Shown here piece after piece: positions 57,318-62,069 of a DNA stretch of 64,000 nt. This DNA comes from Atribacterota bacterium (GTDB lineage Bacteria > Atribacterota > Phoenicimicrobiia > Phoenicimicrobiales > Stramentimicrobiaceae). Under the pieces are notes generated by a model. It was not told the origin of the DNA. It was given only the letters and a program-made list of their open reading frames with translations, and did no database searches. Positions within the stretch are counted from its first letter, which is position 1. Every line of letters starts with the position of its first letter. The translations under genes and the position numbers were made by a program. The stretch is from the NCBI GenBank assembly GCA_040767965.1, contig JAXGNR010000004.1, forward strand, positions 704,001 to 768,000, in the 5' to 3' direction.

Positions 57318-58007
57318 TTATACTAAGTCCTGAATATTTTTTATTCCAACACATTCCTTTGATATAAAGGCTTCTCCATATTCCCTGCCTATTAATCCAC
57401 CCCAATAAGAATTTTTTCTTTTTACCCAGGCAATACCAGCATGTTGGTTTAAGCTTGATCCAAATTGAGATTCATAACATTCTAAAGCAGTTAATTTCTT
57501 CTCCATTTCATCAGATATGTTATATATAAAATTAGGTGAAATATTTAATCTGATATGAGAGACTAAATAATAATATATTTTAGGTACGTAATAAGGATCT
57601 CCTTCCATATTTGTTTTTGTAAGTTTACCGTAAAACCTGGCAGCATCGCATAATTTAGAAGCTGCAATATGGTCTGGATGGGCATCAATCCAATAAGGAG
57701 CAAATATGATTTCTGGTCTATTTATTCTAAATTGTTCTGCTAATTTTTGACGAGAAGGAATATCGTCTGTTAAATATCGATTTTTTAAAGTAATATTAAT
57801 TCTATTTTTTACTCCAAGTATTTGTTTTGCTTTTTCAGATTCATTTTTTCTTTTTTCAACAGTTCCACGCGGAGTTGGTTCTCCATCTGTTAAATCCAGA
57901 ATTGTTACATCTATATTTTGTTTTACCATTGATATTATTGTTCCACCCATTCCTATTTCCACATCATCAGGATGAGCTCCTATAGCCATTGCTTTCAATA
58001 CAATCAA
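57318..58007 (-). CDS. PIG-L family N-acetylglucosaminyl deacetylase, BshB1-like
   Basis: GAHPDDVEIGMGG, DLTDGE...RG, R..E, DAHPDH, YESQF, YGEAF. Confidence 0.9.
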   Translation of the reverse strand: MIVLKAMAIGAHPDDVEIGMGGTIISMVKQNIDVTILDLTDGEPTPRGTVEKRKNESEKAKQILGVKNRINITLKNRYLTDDIPSRQKLAEQFRINRPEIIFAPYWIDAHPDHIAASKLCDAARFYGKLTKTNMEGDPYYVPKIYYYLVSHIRLNISPNFIYNISDEMEKKLTALECYESQFGSSLNQHAGIAWVKRKNSYWGGLIGREYGEAFISKECVGIKNIQDLV

Positions 58008-58720
58008 TCTCCTTTCGGATTATTTTTATATAATATGAAAACCTTTTCAAGGTATTATTCAGGATAACTCCAAATGTTCGTTTCTCATCTGTATAAATTA
58101 GCTCAATTGGCATTTCCTTAAGAATTAATTTTTGTTTATGTGCCTGTAAAATAAGTTGCAGCGGTAAACCAAAACCTTTTTCTGTTAATTTTAATTTTTT
58201 TAACGCCGATACACTATATATTTTAAAACCACAAAAAGAATCAGTTAAATCATAATCGGTAATTGCAGATAGTATTTTTGTTATTCTATGATTAACCTTT
58301 TGTCTGTTTGGAGGAGGTGTTGATAACATCATTTTCGGATCAAGATATCTTGATCCTGATAAAATATCTATATTATTTTTTTTAATCGTATTCACAAAGT
58401 GAGGGATATTTTCCGGCTCATGCTGTCCATCACCGTCAATAGTTATTATATATTTATAATTATTTTTTATTGAAAAATTAAAACCATTAATTAACGTTTT
58501 ACCATAACCTTCATTTGTGTGATGATTTATATAAAATAGGTTACCATTATTCTTTTCAGAAATATTTTTTATTATAGAATCGCTTGAATCTGTTGAACCA
58601 TCATTAATAATAAGAATATCGCTTTTTGAATATTTTCTAATATCATCTATAACTTTTTCAATATTTTTTCTTCGTTATATACCGGATAAATATTAAAATA
58701 TCTTGCTTATGTTTTTTCAT
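57967..58720 (-). CDS. Family 2 glycosyltransferase (DPM1-like), with two apparent 1-nt deletions near the 5' end
   Basis: Manual reading from ATG 58720 with two frame corrections gives ILIFI-PVYNEEK-IEKVIDDI...INDGSTD...NEGYG...IDGDGQHEP, continuing into ORF 57967-58395 (GSRY, TDSFCGFK). Both indels sit in homopolymers (CC near 58682, A6 near 58664-58669), so sequencing error or a recent pseudogene. Confidence 0.8.
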
Positions 58721-58841: not shown

Positions 58842-60718
58842 TCAGCATTCAATCCATTCCAGATCCAGCTCTGCCAGTTTGGCTTTTGGTTGGAACTCCA
58901 TTTTCATCCCAGCCCTGTATGGCATAGTAGGTTTGAAGGGCTCAATTGAATTCTTCTTTATCAATAGCCTTGTCTTTTAAAGGGCCGCTGGTAAAGGCCT
59001 TGAAGATACGATCCGGTAATTTATCATCTTCGGTAAATCCTTCTCTGTTGTTGAAGCAGCGGGCCATGGTGTTAGCCTTTTTCTCCCACTTTAATCAGTT
59101 CAAATAAGCTGGTATTCCAGCCGGTTACTGCTTCTACTAAAGAAACCAGGTTTTTAAGGCTTTGAAAACCTATAGGAACTGAAGTAAAATTACACATTCC
59201 AATACTGTTATATAAATCTAATATTTTCTGAGTTGTAGACAAAAAGCCAATTTTTTTATCACTTAAATCTAATGGTTCAATTGGTTCCAATAAACCCAAA
59301 GCTGAAACCTCTTCAAGAGGAAAACCATAGTCAGTAAACATAACATCGTGTGGTATTTCACAATGATCTGCTCCGGTGGGAGAGATGGCATACGGATTCC
59401 TAAGCCAACTTTTCCTCTTGGTTCATGCATGGGAAATTCCTGTCCCTTGACATGCATGGCATACTGTTCTGCCCCTTTTCGAAATTTGTGCAGCTTTGGC
59501 TACGCCTTTGCTATAGGTGGCTCCTATTCCATCTAAGTTGTAGATCTTTTCGATCATCTTTTAACATGGCATCAGCATTGCCGAATTTCAGCTGGATGCC
59601 GTCGGTGTCTTTTTCGGTGATGATGCCTTCTTCGAAGCATTCCATGGCAAAGGCGATGGTGGTGCCGGTGGAGATGGTATCAAGTCCGTATTTGTTGCAC
59701 AGTTCATTACCTTTGGGCAATAGCCTCAAGATCATCTATTCCTAAGAGAGAGCCCAGGAACCGATGGTTTCATATTCAGGTCCTCCGTAATAGGGATCTA
59801 CATCATAGCGGCCTTCCACTTTGACTTCTCTTTGCAGCGGACCGGACAGGCATAGCAGTGGCCGCGCGGACTAAGATGGTCTCAGCCATGGTAGGTCCCG
59901 AGATGGCAGAGGCACCTTCAAACTGGCCTTCCCTGAAGTTGCGGGTAGGCAGGATGCCGGCTGCGTTTAAGGATTCTACTCCTCTGGGCGGTACCGTAAT
60001 CGTGCATGCCCTGGGAGACTTGTTTCCAATTGAGGGGCAAACTCCTTGGTAATCTCTTTGATCTTGGCCTATCATGATAGGGGTTCTTGCCTGAGGGCGT
60101 ACGGCAATGGCCCGCAGTTTCTTGGAGCCCATGACTGCTCCCAGGCCTACTTCAGGCCGTTGTAATGTTTTGATTCATTGCTTATGCAGGCATAGTTGAT
60201 CAGCTTTTCTCCGGTGGCCGCGATCTGGGCTATTCTGATCTTATCATCTCCCAATTCTTCACGGATCATACGCTTCGGCTTCTCCGGTGGTCTTACCGGT
60301 TATGGATGCGGCATCACGTAATTCTATCTTGTCATCCTTGATCCACAGGTAGACGGGCTGGGGGAGAGATGCCTTTGATGATGATGGCATCATAGCCGGC
60401 CCATTTGAACTCAGGGCCCACCAGCCTCCGGCTTCTGCTTCTCCGAAGCCTCCGGTTAAGGGGGATTTGGCTGCTACGGTGTAACGGCTGGCTCCCGGGA
60501 CGGTGGTACCGGTAATGGGACTGCAGGCAAAGACTAAGATGTTCTCAGGGCCTAAGGGACCATGCCCTTGGGCATCTCTGAAAGTGGCAGGGAACTGGCC
60601 ATGCTCTCCCTCCCAGGTACTTGCGGTAGATGAGCTCTGGTAAGACTTCTGTTTTGACTTCACCTTTGGAGAGGTCTACTCTGATGATCTTGCCATTATA
60701 GGGTTTCTTTTCTGACAT
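58842..60718 (-). pseudogene. aor: Aldehyde:ferredoxin oxidoreductase (tungsten AOR family), multiply frameshifted
   Basis: Fragments in order: MSEKKPYNGKIIRVDLS (ATG 60718 after GGAGG), AKSPLTGGFGEAEAGG, GAVMGSKKLRAIAV, LPTRNF, GPEYET, CNKYGLDTISTG, MHVKGQEFPMHEPR, SIGMCNF, AVTGW, ELDLEWIEC-stop; span is about full length. Confidence 0.85.
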
Positions 60719-60831
60719 AATATATGCCTCCTTTTGAAATTTAATTAGAACTAGGGTTTAGGGTAAAAACTATTACTTTAATTATAATTACAAATAGATT
60801 TAATTGCCCTTTTACAATAAAAGGCAAAAAT

Positions 60832-60871
60832 ATTAGAAACATAATAAATAGAAATTTATTATGTTTCTAAT
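60832..60871. terminator. Long hairpin, probable terminator between the micro-ORF and the AOR gene
   Basis: 18-bp perfect inverted repeat attagaaacataataaat / atttattatgtttctaat, followed on the minus strand by ATTTTT. Confidence 0.65.
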
Positions 60872-61006
60872 TAATTTAAAACTATATAAACATTTAGTTA
60901 ATATTATACAAAATCAATAATTTTTTTTCAATTTTTAATTTTTATATACTTTCATTTCTTATTATTTTATTTTTTATAATTTTTCAATATATTTTAAATA
61001 ATAAAA

Positions 61007-61038
61007 AATTACCTGCTGCTAACCTAGCAGACACAATC
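61007..61038 (-). promoter_or_regulatory. Candidate bacterial SECIS-like hairpin downstream of in-frame UGA
   Basis: Minus strand GATTG-TG-(T)-CTGCT-AGGTT-AGCAG-CA-GG-TAATT: bulged U and GGU-containing apical loop about 24 nt after the UGA; could alternatively be a terminator. Confidence 0.45.
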
Positions 61039-61042
61039 TTTA

Positions 61043-61117
61043 TTATGCTCATCCGCATCCAGCTAAAAAAAGAGATAAAGCTACTATTAATGAAATAAAT
61101 ATAAATAATTTTGCCAA
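61043..61117 (-). CDS. Unannotated micro-ORF: lipoprotein signal peptide plus Cys-Gly-(UGA/Sec)-Ala
   Basis: GGAGGTG SD, 7 nt, TTG: MAKLFIFISLIVALSLFLAGCG-TGA-GCA-TAA-TAA; LAGC lipobox. Ends at 61049 if UGA is a stop. Confidence 0.65.
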
Positions 61118-61153
61118 AATATTTCACCTCCATTTTAAATATAATTTATCTTT

Positions 61154-61175
61154 TTATCTGACAATTATCTGACAA
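61154..61175. repeat. Perfect 11-bp tandem repeat TTATCTGACAA x2, putative operator
   Basis: Directly visible; lies between the predicted promoter and the SD of the micro-ORF; each unit is a near-palindrome. Confidence 0.6.
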
Positions 61176-61186
61176 AAGTTTAATAA

Positions 61187-61215
61187 ATTGTATCTTATTA
61201 GCTTTATTAAAACAA
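61187..61215 (-). promoter_or_regulatory. Putative promoter of the micro-ORF
   Basis: TTGTTT-17 nt-TACAAT; AT-rich context lowers specificity. Confidence 0.45.
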
Positions 61216-61271
61216 ATTAATAATTTCAATTATTTAATTAAACTATTGAATTAGGTAAAAAGATTTATATT

Positions 61272-62069
61272 TTAATTCAACAATTTTTCAACAATGTAAG
61301 GATCATTAATGGTAAGACCATCAATCCGCCATTTTATTAATTTTCTTAGAAATGAATCTTCAATATTTTCCCCTACCCCCCAAAGGCGAACTTTAAAGCT
61401 GTTTTCATGAAGCATTTTAATAATTTCTTCATCAGTATTGCATGCTGGAGGGCAGACAACATTCACATTAAACTTAGTTGCATCCTTAATTAGGTTATTG
61501 ATATTGTTATAAATATTGACTGGTGCTCCATCGTTGATCAAAGAAAAATAGTCCTTTTTTGTTGAAAATTCAATTAAAGCAGAGGTTTCTATATTTTTTT
61601 CAATTTTTTTCACTTTTTCTAAAACATCCCAGTAAAAAGCTGAAACATTAACCCTATTTATCATATTTCTTTTCTTTATCATATTAACTGCTTTTTCTGT
61701 TATTTCAGGAAAATAATTACTATCCTTAATTTCAAGAACTAATTTAATATCTTTGTATTTTTCTAACAAATCAAATACTTCTGATAGAGTAGGTATTCTT
61801 TCATCTTTATATTTTGGACCAAACCACAAACCAGCATCTAATTTTTTTAAATCTGTTAAATTAAAATCAGAAACAATGCCTTTACCATTAGTTGTTCTGT
61901 CTATTTTCTTATCATGTATTACCACCAAATGGCCATCTTTTGACAATCTGATATCACATTCTATGTATTTTATTCCCGTATTGATTGCTTTTATAAAAGC
62001 AGCTAATGTATTTTCTGGACAATAAGCTGAAGCTCCTCTATGAGCTATATTCATGAAATCTGCAGGCAT
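61272..62069 (-). CDS. Glycerophosphodiester phosphodiesterase (cytoplasmic)
   Basis: IAHRGAS..PENT, IECDI, VVIHD...RTT, IPTL, EIK. Confidence 0.93.
   Translation of the reverse strand: MPADFMNIAHRGASAYCPENTLAAFIKAINTGIKYIECDIRLSKDGHLVVIHDKKIDRTTNGKGIVSDFNLTDLKKLDAGLWFGPKYKDERIPTLSEVFDLLEKYKDIKLVLEIKDSNYFPEITEKAVNMIKKRNMINRVNVSAFYWDVLEKVKKIEKNIETSALIEFSTKKDYFSLINDGAPVNIYNNINNLIKDATKFNVNVVCPPACNTDEEIIKMLHENSFKVRLWGVGENIEDSFLRKLIKWRIDGLTINDPYIVEKLLN

What the first reader, a model, noticed from the sequence alone, without database searches (positions are those of the whole stretch)
61007..61215. Candidate selenocysteine lipo-tetrapeptide gene: signal peptide-LAGC-G-UGA-A with SECIS-like hairpin, as its own transcription unit
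Seen in sequence (minus strand, too short for the ORF track): putative promoter TTGTTT-17-TACAAT (61187-61215), tandem 11-bp repeat, strong SD GGAGGTG 7 nt before TTG (61117), then MAKLFIFISLIVALSLFLAGC-G-TGA-GCA-TAA-TAA. Next is a GC-rich hairpin UG(U)CUGCU-AGGUU-AGCAG-CA whose loop starts about 24 nt after the UGA. A separate long AT-rich terminator of the style used elsewhere in this window lies downstream at 60832-60871. Established: LAGC is the canonical Lgt/LspA lipobox; the E. coli fdhF SECIS has a bulged U and a GGU-containing loop just downstream of the UGA; CxU is a selenoprotein-type motif. Inference: UGA is read as Sec, so the mature product would be diacylglyceryl-Cys-Gly-Sec-Ala, a ribosomally made membrane-anchored selenopeptide (redox catalyst, metal ligand or Se store). 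I know of no description of this. Even without Sec, a lipo-dipeptide gene would be odd.
Basis: partly seen in the sequence, partly recalled or inferred. Interest (0 to 1): 0.88.

Follow-up and report, generated by a model that had tools for sequence, protein, structure and literature searches.

The report
Orphan lipoprotein-signal mini-ORF with SECIS-like hairpin
A 22-codon stretch that encodes only a lipoprotein export signal, and stops at a UGA followed by a hairpin like this bacterium's own selenocysteine signals, is really in the sequence, but no relative of it was found, so it is more likely a leftover or an accident than a new selenium-bearing lipopeptide.

Summary
On the minus strand, SD GGAGGTG lies 7 nt before TTG (61117). 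The ORF reads MAKLFIFISLIVALSLFLAGCG-TGA-GCA-TAA-TAA and is followed by a bulged hairpin with a GGU loop (61033-61014) and a T-run. Contigs of two other sequencing runs carry the identical sequence, so the TGA is not an assembly error.

The hairpin fits the position and loop pattern of this genome's three real SECIS elements (selD, peroxiredoxin, HesB-like). Only 0.07-0.2% of the genome's TGA triplets fit that pattern.

Other evidence points the other way. The ORF is an orphan: nothing like it turned up in 51 order-level relatives, in 185,000 species genomes searched for the exact design, or in metagenome contigs. The hairpin is weak (-6.3 to -7.6 kcal/mol), doubles as the only terminator-like site after the upstream GDPD gene, and lacks the C-G loop-closing pair of all 53 true SECIS sequences examined. 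The neighbourhood holds decaying genes. No RNA evidence could be obtained.

My best reading (about 0.5) is a non-selected vestige or accidental ORF plus a terminator. A functional mini-gene gets about 0.2 and a Sec lipo-tetrapeptide about 0.1. The question needs experiments.

The parts
61187..61215 (-).
   Evidence: Read. It is not among the 6 promoter-like sites of the consensus scan, which found no more sites than shuffles do (6 vs 6.1 +/- 2.6).
61154..61175 (-). Perfect tandem 11-bp repeat (TTGTCAGATAA x2 on the minus strand), followed 10 nt later by TATATT (61143-61138). Function unknown.
   Evidence: TRF gives period 11, 2.0 copies, 100% identity. The idea that it is a Pho box was not supported: the two pstS upstream regions of this genome carry TTAACA/TTTACA repeats instead.
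61125..61131 (-). Shine-Dalgarno GGAGGTG, 7 nt before the TTG start
   Evidence: The SD class matches that of the genome's real lipoprotein genes.
61049..61117 (-). 22-codon ORF MAKLFIFISLIVALSLFLAGCG plus TGA. It is a complete lipoprotein-type signal peptide (K3, hydrophobic core, lipobox LAGC, Cys21) with one residue after the Cys.
   Evidence: It is the only SD-preceded SPII-like start in an ORF under 30 aa among 43 SPII-like starts in the genome.
61040..61048 (-). GCA TAA TAA: the one sense codon and two stops that would follow if the TGA were decoded
61014..61033 (-). Hairpin UG(U)CUGCUA-GGU-UAGCAGCA. It is SECIS-like (first loop G at +27 from the U of UGA) and is also the stem of a terminator-like site.
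   Evidence: Folds (-7.6 kcal/mol in a 28-nt context) and -6.3 by direct evaluation. The terminator scan lists 61033-61010 plus ATTTTTTATT.
61003..61008 (-). T-run (UUUUUU) 5 nt after the bulged hairpin, or directly after the alternative 8-pair stem 61033-61010
60903..60931 (-). Strong promoter-like site TTGAAA-17-TATAAT upstream of the AOR pseudogene. It marks the end of the mini-ORF unit.
   Evidence: 11 of 12 matches.
60832..60871 (-). Perfect 18-bp AT-rich hairpin followed by a U-rich tract: the long AT-rich style of terminator
   Evidence: I2, 100% complementary.: -18.3 kcal/mol, z -8.08, 0 of 200 shuffles as stable.
61272..62069 (-). Upstream gene for a GDPD-family glycerophosphodiester phosphodiesterase. 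No terminator-like site lies between it and the mini-ORF.
   Evidence: Pfam PF03009, E 5.7e-42. The terminator scan found a single site in 60500-61500.
58842..60718 (-). Downstream multi-frameshift pseudogene copy of an aldehyde:ferredoxin oxidoreductase gene. Similarity to the intact copy on contig C9 begins at 60796.
   Evidence: Fragmented frames. GC 46-55%. The 77-nt leader is 90% identical to C9:102788-102864. The C9 copy is open for 499 aa and matches AFOR_N and AFOR_C.

Best explanation
This is a lineage-specific orphan mini-ORF. It consists of a lipoprotein (SPII) signal peptide with a one-residue stub. It sits in the 3' tail of the GDPD transcription unit, inside an accessory region that is decaying. 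The hairpin after it is primarily the weak intrinsic terminator of that unit.

The ORF is most likely not under selection. It is either the vestige of a lipoprotein gene that lost its mature part (for example by an internal deletion that joined codon 22 to the gene's own 3' end and terminator), or a de novo accident of AT-rich DNA.

Inferred consequences, none of them shown:
- If the RNA is made, the strong SD would let ribosomes start.
- RF2 would end most chains at UGA.
- Lgt and LspA could turn the product into diacylglyceryl-Cys-Gly plus a free signal peptide.
- Because the hairpin happens to fit the bacterial SECIS consensus, a fraction of chains might be extended to Cys-Gly-Sec-Ala.
For: No relative found:
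- No DNA match to the ORF or hairpin in 40 relatives.
- Peptide search in the 22 genomes of the family gave only generic signal peptides of long lipoproteins (best foreign E 0.06). The one short hit is antisense inside a large gene.
- Of 66 occurrences of L-[AS]-G-C-x-TGA examined in the order, none has a signal peptide upstream.
- None of the 14 exact LAGCG-TGA-Ala-TAA hits in 185,579 species genomes has one.

Accessory, decaying neighbourhood:
- The flanking GDPD has no orthologue. The best relative is 38% identical, and metagenome hits are 31-34%.
- The next gene downstream is a multi-frameshift copy of an intact AOR gene elsewhere.
- The GT2 gene after that lacks its first ~23 profile positions in frame.
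- Another lipoprotein gene is frameshifted.

Terminator role:
- The hairpin is the only terminator-like site after GDPD (1 found vs 0.4 +/- 0.8 in shuffles), and a T-run follows it.
- Its energy is unexceptional (z -1.4 to -1.5).
- All 53 distinct true SECIS sequences of the order (3 gene families) close the loop with C-G. This hairpin closes with A-U.

Chance: AT-rich sequence makes signal-peptide-like ORFs by itself. There were 53 in 30 simulated genomes, all 20-75 codons, and 5 of the 53 ended 0-1 residues after the Cys.
Against: - An SPII-like start with an SD is rare by chance: 3 in 30 simulated genomes, none with a 5-mer SD such as GGAGG.
- A random truncation of a real lipoprotein gene would seldom fall one residue after the Cys.
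- The hairpin sits where this genome's true SECIS elements sit and has the selD-type GGU loop. Only 60 of 81,753 TGA triplets fit the strict pattern. Only 1 of 307 TGA stops, 0 of 1,216 TAA stops and 0 of 339 TAG stops of long ORFs fit the loose one.
- Of the 5 strict hits genome-wide that also have an in-frame SD and start, 3 are the true selenoprotein genes and one is this ORF.
- As a terminator the hairpin is atypical for this genome. Only 68 of 1,862 long-ORF ends have a hairpin with at least 3 G-C pairs plus a T-run, and their median stem is 13 bp.
- No remnant of a mature lipoprotein domain is visible downstream.
Confidence: 0.5

Rival explanations
1. Functional mini-gene without selenocysteine. 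The ORF is translated and ends at UGA, and the useful product is either the released signal peptide or the minimal lipopeptide. The signal peptide would be a hydrophobic peptide cut out by LspA and a site-2 protease, as enterococcal pheromones are cut from lipoprotein signal peptides. The lipopeptide would be diacylglyceryl-Cys-Gly.
For: - Strong SD at 7 nt and a canonical signal peptide and lipobox. The combination is rare by chance.
- lgt and lspA are present.
- The unit is compact, with a promoter-like site and a hairpin plus T-run.
Against: - No homologue anywhere.
- No receptor or exporter context beside it.
- The promoter is weak.
- No expression evidence.
- A 22-residue chain ends inside the ribosomal tunnel, so membrane targeting would have to be post-translational (inference).
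Confidence: 0.2
2. One reading: SelB binds the hairpin, UGA is decoded as Sec, and translation ends at UAA UAA. After Lgt and LspA processing the product is a membrane-anchored diacylglyceryl-Cys-Gly-Sec-Ala selenopeptide.
For: - The Sec machinery is complete, and selD itself contains Sec.
- Hairpin loop A-GGU-U fits the published N1-G-[G|U]-N-N2 pattern with 23 nt spacing, inside the 16-37 nt range (PMC13188914 section 5).
- Its first loop G is at +27, against +27, +29 and +30 in prx, hesB and selD.
- It has the same GGU triloop as selD in most of 27 genomes.
- Its stability equals that of the genuine prx SECIS (-6.3 vs -6.4).
- The pattern is rare, at 0.07-0.2% of TGAs.
- A SECIS placed wholly in the 3' UTR works in E. 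coli for thioredoxin reductase constructs (passages of PMC10778597).
- The TGA is verified in other runs.
Against: - There is no conserved family and no Cys homologue, which are the usual criteria for a selenoprotein gene.
- Only one codon follows the UGA.
- The hairpin lacks the C-G closing pair of all 53 true SECIS sequences seen. It is followed by a T-run, as a terminator is.
- The pattern was partly tuned after seeing the candidate. About 6% of TGAs have an in-frame SD and start, so a few such coincidences per genome are expected.
- The first stage scanned very many windows, so a coincidence of this size is not excluded at the level of the whole scan (inference).
- The +1 Cys thiol is lipid-blocked, so 'CxU' is not a redox pair (established lipoprotein chemistry).
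Confidence: 0.1
3. Translation-coupled attenuator. Where the ribosome stops decides whether the weak terminator hairpin forms, and so tunes read-through from the GDPD unit towards the downstream genes. At UGA the ribosome would leave the hairpin free. At UAA UAA, two codons further on, it would cover the lower stem.
For: - Geometry only: the hairpin starts 18 nt after the U of UGA and 12 nt after the first UAA.
- The hairpin is weak, and a second, strong hairpin follows.
Against: - The downstream gene has its own strong promoter and is a pseudogene.
- No Rfam family matches.
- A signal peptide with a lipobox is not needed for a leader peptide.
- No conservation.
Confidence: 0.05

Closest known systems
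Bacterial prolipoproteins (Lgt/LspA substrates, e.g. Braun's lipoprotein)
   Same: Positively charged n-region, hydrophobic core and lipobox L-A-G-C with Cys at position 21. The SD and signal peptide are of the same style as this genome's roughly 30 long lipoprotein genes. lgt and lspA are present.
   Different: The mature part is 1 residue (3 with Sec read-through) instead of tens to hundreds. The shortest other SPII-like ORFs with an SD here are 50 aa (frameshifted) and 72 aa. No family and no homologues.
Bacterial selenoprotein genes with a bSECIS, in this genome selD, peroxiredoxin and HesB-like
   Same: UGA followed at 16-37 nt by a small apical loop with G-G/U. The distance (+27) and the GGU loop lie within the range of the genome's own elements.
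   Different: The SECIS would lie entirely after the stop codons. There is no Cys-containing homologue and no conserved flanks. The closing pair is A-U instead of C-G. A T-run follows.
[quoted passage not shown]
   Same: Sec close to the C-terminus and an untranslated SECIS just after the stop, shown to work with the E. coli machinery (passages of PMC10778597).
   Different: These are engineered, not natural, and the product is a large enzyme rather than a tetrapeptide.
Enterococcal sex pheromones cut from lipoprotein signal peptides
   Same: The product comes from a lipoprotein signal peptide. The peptides are hydrophobic hepta- or octamers processed after LspA by Eep (passages of PMC4173765). 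That the plasmid-encoded inhibitor peptides come from ORFs of about 21-23 codons is my recollection and comes from no call.
   Different: The known precursors are full-length lipoproteins. No sensing system, exporter or plasmid context was seen here, and this organism is a diderm (Omp85 present).
Rho-independent terminators
   Same: Stem followed by a T-run, downstream of a gene with no other terminator-like site.
   Different: The stem is short. Typical hairpins in this genome with at least 3 G-C pairs plus a T-run have 13-bp stems, and most hairpins are AT-only. The T-run starts 5 nt after the best stem.

Membership tests
Lipoprotein precursor (SPII signal peptide) | n-region with K/R, uncharged hydrophobic h-region, lipobox [LVI][ASTVI][GAS]C at about residues 15-30 | tested here: met
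   MAK / LFIFISLIVALSLF / LAGC with Cys21. It passes the rule-based scan that also recovers about 30 long lipoprotein ORFs. No SignalP-type predictor was available.
Lipoprotein precursor (SPII signal peptide) | Processing enzymes Lgt and LspA encoded in the genome | tested here: met
   PF01790 at 233.3 bits and PF01252 at 123.5 bits. Lnt reached only 44.8 bits against a cut-off of 132.9.
Lipoprotein precursor (SPII signal peptide) | A mature protein domain after the +1 Cys | tested here: not met
   One residue (Gly) before TGA, then one codon and two stops. No open frame continues.
Lipoprotein precursor (SPII signal peptide) | Lipidation and cleavage shown | not testable with these tools
   This needs globomycin sensitivity, palmitate labelling or mass spectrometry.
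Bacterial selenoprotein gene | Sec machinery: tRNA-Sec, SelA, SelB, SelD | tested here: met
   tRNA-SeC at C9:20785-20880. selA 415.8 bits. selB 339.4 bits against a cut-off of 242.25. selD 346.2 bits with 1 in-frame TGA.
Bacterial selenoprotein gene | bSECIS: loop 3-9 nt, stem 4-16 bp, G in the first two loop positions, 16-37 nt from UGA | tested here: met
   Loop A-GGU-U, 5-6 bp plus 2 bp beyond a bulged U, 23 nt spacing. The model is quoted from PMC13188914 section 5.
Bacterial selenoprotein gene | bSECIS minimum free energy of -7.5 kcal/mol or lower | tested here: inconclusive
   -6.3 by direct evaluation of the hairpin and -7.6 in a 28-nt fold. The genuine prx element is -6.4 and hesB -7.6. 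By my strict implementation only selD passes.
Bacterial selenoprotein gene | Homologues with Cys or Sec aligned at the UGA, conserved flanks on both sides | tested here: not met
   No homologue in 51 relatives or in species-wide and metagenome scans. Only one codon lies downstream.
Bacterial selenoprotein gene | Loop-closing C-G pair as in this order's SECIS elements. This is a lineage feature seen here, not a published rule. | tested here: not met
   All 53 distinct selD, hesB and prx SECIS sequences have C-G at the loop. The candidate has A-U, or U-A if the loop is read as 5 nt.
Intrinsic terminator | G+C-containing stem-loop directly followed by a T-run, downstream of a transcription unit | tested here: met
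   Scan hit 61033-61010 plus ATTTTTTATT. It was the single hit in 1 kb, against 0.4 +/- 0.8 in shuffles. RNA 3' ends were not tested.

The most novel reading that the evidence does not exclude
The UGA is decoded by SelB through the 3'-UTR hairpin, and the gene makes a ribosomally synthesised, diacylglyceryl-anchored Cys-Gly-Sec-Ala selenopeptide. This would be the first lipoprotein-type and by far the smallest selenoprotein, with a natural SECIS lying wholly beyond the stop codon. In a variant of this reading, Sec-dependent ribosome progress controls the terminator.
Probability: 0.1. Interest if true: 0.9.

Novelty: new variant of a known kind. Interest (0 to 1): 0.45.

Why it matters
If it is real, it would add a new class to two well-studied systems. 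One is a lipoprotein gene reduced to its signal peptide and a 1-3-residue lipopeptide. The other is possibly a membrane-anchored selenolate made by the ribosome, with a natural untranslated bacterial SECIS. Neither appears in the recent review of prokaryotic selenoproteomes that I searched by term: 'lipoprotein' and 'signal peptide' each occur 0 times in PMC13188914. A full-text search for selenocysteine plus lipobox found 4 papers; the 3 listed are unrelated by title and abstract start.

If it is a vestige or an accident, it is a useful caution. In an AT-rich, Sec-using genome, a signal-peptide-like ORF, a UGA and a SECIS-like terminator can coincide. Pattern-based selenoprotein finders need the homology criterion.

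Tried and rejected
- Rfam. It found nothing relevant at the locus. It also failed to detect the three true SECIS elements of this genome, so it says nothing either way.
- Pho-box reading of the 11-bp repeat. Rejected: the pstS upstream regions carry TTAACA/TTTACA repeats, and TTGTCA-N5-TTGTCA sites show no obvious regulon.
- Synteny test. Not possible: GDPD has no orthologue in the 51 relatives (35-46% identity only, and the best hit is a paralogue in the genome itself) or in metagenome contigs.
- Strain variation. Contigs of runs X2 and X10 are identical to the window, so there is no substitution pattern to read.
- RNA. Contigs of the one clear metatranscriptome laid (X16) did not cover 60735-61353, and X13 is probably DNA. 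This is no evidence for or against transcription.
- Covariance model of the order's SECIS. Not built. MAFFT aligned the 53 sequences without gaps, so the three hairpin families fall in different columns and share no consensus structure. A hairpin-only model would carry too little information.
- My implementation of the published bSECIS model with a hairpin energy of -7.5 or lower. It rejected two of the three true elements, so it is too strict here. It passed 141 of 12,000 sampled TGAs.
- The 49-aa overlapping ORF 60984-61133. It has no SD and was set aside.
- Remnant of a mature lipoprotein domain downstream. None is visible: there are stops in all frames and 16-21% GC.
- Prx SECIS extraction. 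My motif caught 9 of the 13 Sec-type prx loci, and the other 4 were not examined.
- Supplements of papers were closed. The lists of BSepDB (PMC13326102) and deep-Sep (PMC12013277), of which I saw only the search listing, might contain small or exported selenoproteins that bear on novelty.
Full report
WHAT IS THERE. The window is G000:C4:704001-768000 of a 2.33-Mb, 32.8% G+C, 30-contig genome. GGAGGTG lies at 61131-61125, followed by 7 nt and TTG at 61117. The peptide is MAKLFIFISLIVALSLFLAGCG, then TGA (61051-61049), GCA, TAA, TAA. The TTG is the first start after an in-frame TGA inside the SD. From 61033 to 61014 lies UG(U)CUGCUA-GGU-UAGCAGCA, followed by GGUAA and UUUUUU. The 11-bp tandem repeat (61154-61175) and the 18-bp perfect AT-rich hairpin (60832-60871) are also real. 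The proposed promoter TTGTTT-17-TACAAT exists but is weak and was not listed by the consensus scan, which found no more promoter-like sites than shuffles do.

IS THE SEQUENCE RIGHT. Twenty of the 24 listed public runs, from 15 studies, hold the stretch or a part of it. I laid four of them. A 477-nt contig of X2 covers 60743-61219 with 0 differences. Two contigs of X10 cover 60914-61064 and 61078-61228 with 0 differences. So the TGA, the TAA TAA and the hairpin are not assembly errors. No variant was seen, so strain variation offers no test of selection.

PREREQUISITES. The genome has tRNA-Sec (C9:20785-20880) next to selA, selB and a Sec-containing selD. It also has lgt and lspA. Omp85 is present. 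Lnt is not found above its cut-off.

THE SIGNAL PEPTIDE. A rule-based scan found 43 SPII-like starts in the genome, 30 of them with an SD. Of those 30, 26 head ORFs of 100 aa or more, 2 head ORFs of 60-99 aa, 1 heads a 50-aa ORF and 1 heads the candidate. The 50-aa case is a frameshifted lipoprotein gene. Thirty Markov-3 simulated genomes gave 53 SPII-like starts (0-5 per genome), all in ORFs of 20-75 codons. Three had any SD and none had a 5-mer SD. Five of the 53 ended 0-1 residues after the Cys. AT-rich DNA therefore makes signal-peptide-like ORFs readily, but the combination with a strong SD is uncommon, at about 0.1 per genome or less.

THE HAIRPIN AS A SECIS. Looking for in-frame TGAs with coding signal on both sides gave 82 candidates. 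Three were recognisable: selD, a peroxiredoxin (FTFV-U-PTE) and a HesB-like protein (GIG-U-GG) (Pfam). Their SECIS elements are 6-8-bp stems with loops GGU, CGUGA and UGGAU, and the first loop G lies at +30, +27 and +29 from the U of UGA. These elements are conserved in relatives: 27 selD, 26 hesB and 9 prx sequences.

The candidate has a 6-bp stem, plus 2 bp beyond a bulged U, a GGU loop and its first loop G at +27. A pattern defined only from the three true elements requires at least 6 bp, at least 3 G-C pairs, a 3-5-nt loop containing G[G/U], and the G at +27 to +30. It is met by 60 of 81,753 TGA triplets. A looser version is met by 174 of 81,753. The looser version is also met by 1 of 307 TGA stops, 0 of 1,216 TAA stops and 0 of 339 TAG stops of ORFs of 150 aa or more. 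Only 5 strict hits have an in-frame SD and start: the three selenoprotein genes, the candidate and a 4-codon ORF.

The candidate also fits the published consensus of a 3-9-nt loop, G in the first two loop positions as N1-G-[G|U]-N-N2, and 16-37 nt spacing (PMC13188914, section 5 read). Its energy is marginal: -6.3 by direct evaluation and -7.6 in a 28-nt fold, against -6.4 for prx, -7.6 for hesB and about -9 for selD. A SECIS lying in the 3' UTR is known to work in E. coli for thioredoxin reductase constructs (passages of PMC10778597).

WHY I STILL DO NOT READ IT AS SEC.
1. About 6% of TGAs have an in-frame SD and start (11 of 174, 5 of 60). A few SD-ORF-TGA-hairpin coincidences per genome are therefore expected. 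What is special here is only the signal peptide.
2. The hairpin's fold is not unusual for its composition (z -1.4 and -1.5).
3. It is the only terminator-like site after the GDPD gene, and a T-run follows it.
4. All 53 distinct true SECIS sequences close the loop with C-G, whereas the candidate has A-U. This amounts to three independent families only, so the point is weak.
5. The standard criterion for a selenoprotein gene, homologues with Cys or Sec at the site, fails completely (next paragraph).
6. The +1 Cys of a lipoprotein is thioether-linked, so Cys-x-Sec cannot be a redox pair (established chemistry).

NO RELATIVES.
- A DNA search of 60720-61275 in 40 family- and order-level genomes gave only short AT-rich matches, none over the ORF or hairpin. 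No genome of the same genus is held.
- The 22-aa peptide found only generic lipoprotein signal peptides in the family's 22 genomes (best foreign E 0.06). One 43-aa hit is antisense in a glucanotransferase gene.
- The pattern for L-[A/S]-G-C-x-TGA gave 68 matches in 30 of 52 order genomes, against 18 for the reversed control by my count. I read the in-frame upstream translation of 66 of them, all except the candidate and one other site in the genome itself. None has a signal peptide, and none of the relatives' hits combines it with a SECIS-like hairpin.
- The exact L-A-G-C-G-TGA-Ala-TAA pattern gave 14 hits in the 185,579-species collection, about what chance predicts by my estimate. None has a signal peptide.
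- Metagenome contigs hold only 31-34% relatives of the flanking GDPD. In the order the best GDPD match is 38%, below a 46% paralogue in the genome itself. The locus is therefore accessory and synteny cannot be used.

CONTEXT. Upstream on the same strand lie genes for a URO-D-like protein, an FmdA/AmdA-family protein and GDPD. No terminator-like site lies between GDPD and the mini-ORF. Downstream come a strong promoter-like site (60931-60903), the 18-bp hairpin, and from 60796 a copy of the leader and coding region of an AOR gene. That gene is intact on contig C9 but broken by many frameshifts here, and it has 46-55% G+C. After it, a GT2 gene is open only from profile position 24, with its 5' end in other frames. 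The mini-ORF thus sits among decaying genes.

MOST LIKELY MECHANISM. I commit, at about 0.5, to an unselected orphan. One possibility is that a lipoprotein gene lost its body, which would bring its SD and signal peptide next to a 3' end with a terminator. The other is that the ORF arose by chance in AT-rich DNA. In either case the hairpin serves as the weak first terminator of the GDPD unit, backed up by the strong hairpin at 60871-60832. What is shown: the sequence, the machinery, the resemblance to true SECIS elements and the absence of relatives. What is inferred: transcription by read-through from GDPD, initiation at the SD, RF2 termination at UGA, possible Lgt/LspA processing to diacylglyceryl-Cys-Gly, and possible low-level Sec insertion.

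Against this reading stand the rarity of SD plus SPII by chance, the low odds that a truncation falls right after the Cys, the rarity of the SECIS-like geometry, and the hairpin's atypical form for a terminator in this genome. On that last point, 68 of 1,862 long-ORF ends have a hairpin with at least 3 G-C pairs plus a T-run, and their median stem is 13 bp. These points keep the functional readings alive: a mini-gene without Sec at about 0.2, the Sec lipo-tetrapeptide at about 0.1 and an attenuator at about 0.05.

NOVELTY AND SCORE. A full-text search for selenocysteine plus lipobox found 4 papers; the 3 listed are unrelated by title and abstract start. The 2026 review of prokaryotic selenoproteomes does not contain the words lipoprotein or signal peptide (term search). 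Supplements were closed. If the locus is functional it would be a new variant of two known kinds, and with Sec close to a new kind. As it stands it is a real, odd and untestable-by-comparison singleton. I score interest at 0.45.

Noticed in passing
window 58842-60718 (-); L010 (G000:C9:101288-104364): The gene downstream of the finding is a multi-frameshift pseudogene copy of an aldehyde:ferredoxin oxidoreductase gene that is intact on contig C9. The copy includes 77 nt of leader (90% identical). Its G+C is 46-55% in a 33% genome, falling towards the 3' end.
   Followed up: partly
window 57970-58720 (-): A family-2 glycosyltransferase gene is open only from Pfam profile position 24. Its first ~20 codons (MKKHKQDILIFI...) lie in other frames, with shifts at short homopolymer runs. 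This is either real decay or indel errors.
   Followed up: partly
window 61154-61175 (-): A perfect tandem 11-bp repeat (TTGTCAGATAA x2) lies 10 nt upstream of a TATATT. It has the architecture of a direct-repeat response-regulator site but is not the Pho-type box of this genome. Unexplained.
   Followed up: partly
window 60832-60871 (-): A perfect 18-bp AT-rich hairpin (-18.3 kcal/mol, z -8) lies downstream of the AOR promoter-like site, that is, inside the pseudogene's leader. It may be the old terminator of the upstream unit, left over from before the AOR copy arrived.
   Followed up: no
G000:C9:19557-25413: The Sec gene cluster is compact: a HesB-like selenoprotein gene, tRNA-Sec, selA, selB and a Sec-containing selD sit side by side. 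With a Sec peroxiredoxin (C10:3700-4224), these are the only selenoprotein genes my scan recognised.
   Followed up: partly
G000:C11:16283 (+): A lipoprotein gene (signal peptide ...LLFAGCSAG) stops after 50 codons and continues in another frame. It is a second broken lipoprotein gene in this genome.
   Followed up: partly
G000:C7:15950-16050 (-) and C4:321570-321600 (+): The upstream regions of the two pstS-like genes carry TTAACC/TTAACA/TTTACA hexamers in 11-bp phase, resembling Bacillus-type PhoP boxes. The comparison is recalled, not tested.
   Followed up: no
G000:C7:80340 and C7:138572 (-): Two identical copies of a short frame with an in-frame TGA (...TPTQGLS-TGA-FGPSKAGILAWITGE) point to a repeated element. 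Not examined.
   Followed up: no
L204, L205, L209 (Candidatus Electrothrix spp.), L201: The 24-nt degenerate pattern hit the same conserved stretch in three Electrothrix species and one other deltaproteobacterial MAG (...GSLAGCG-TGA-A-TAA in one frame, no signal peptide). It is probably a conserved coding region read in another frame.
   Followed up: no
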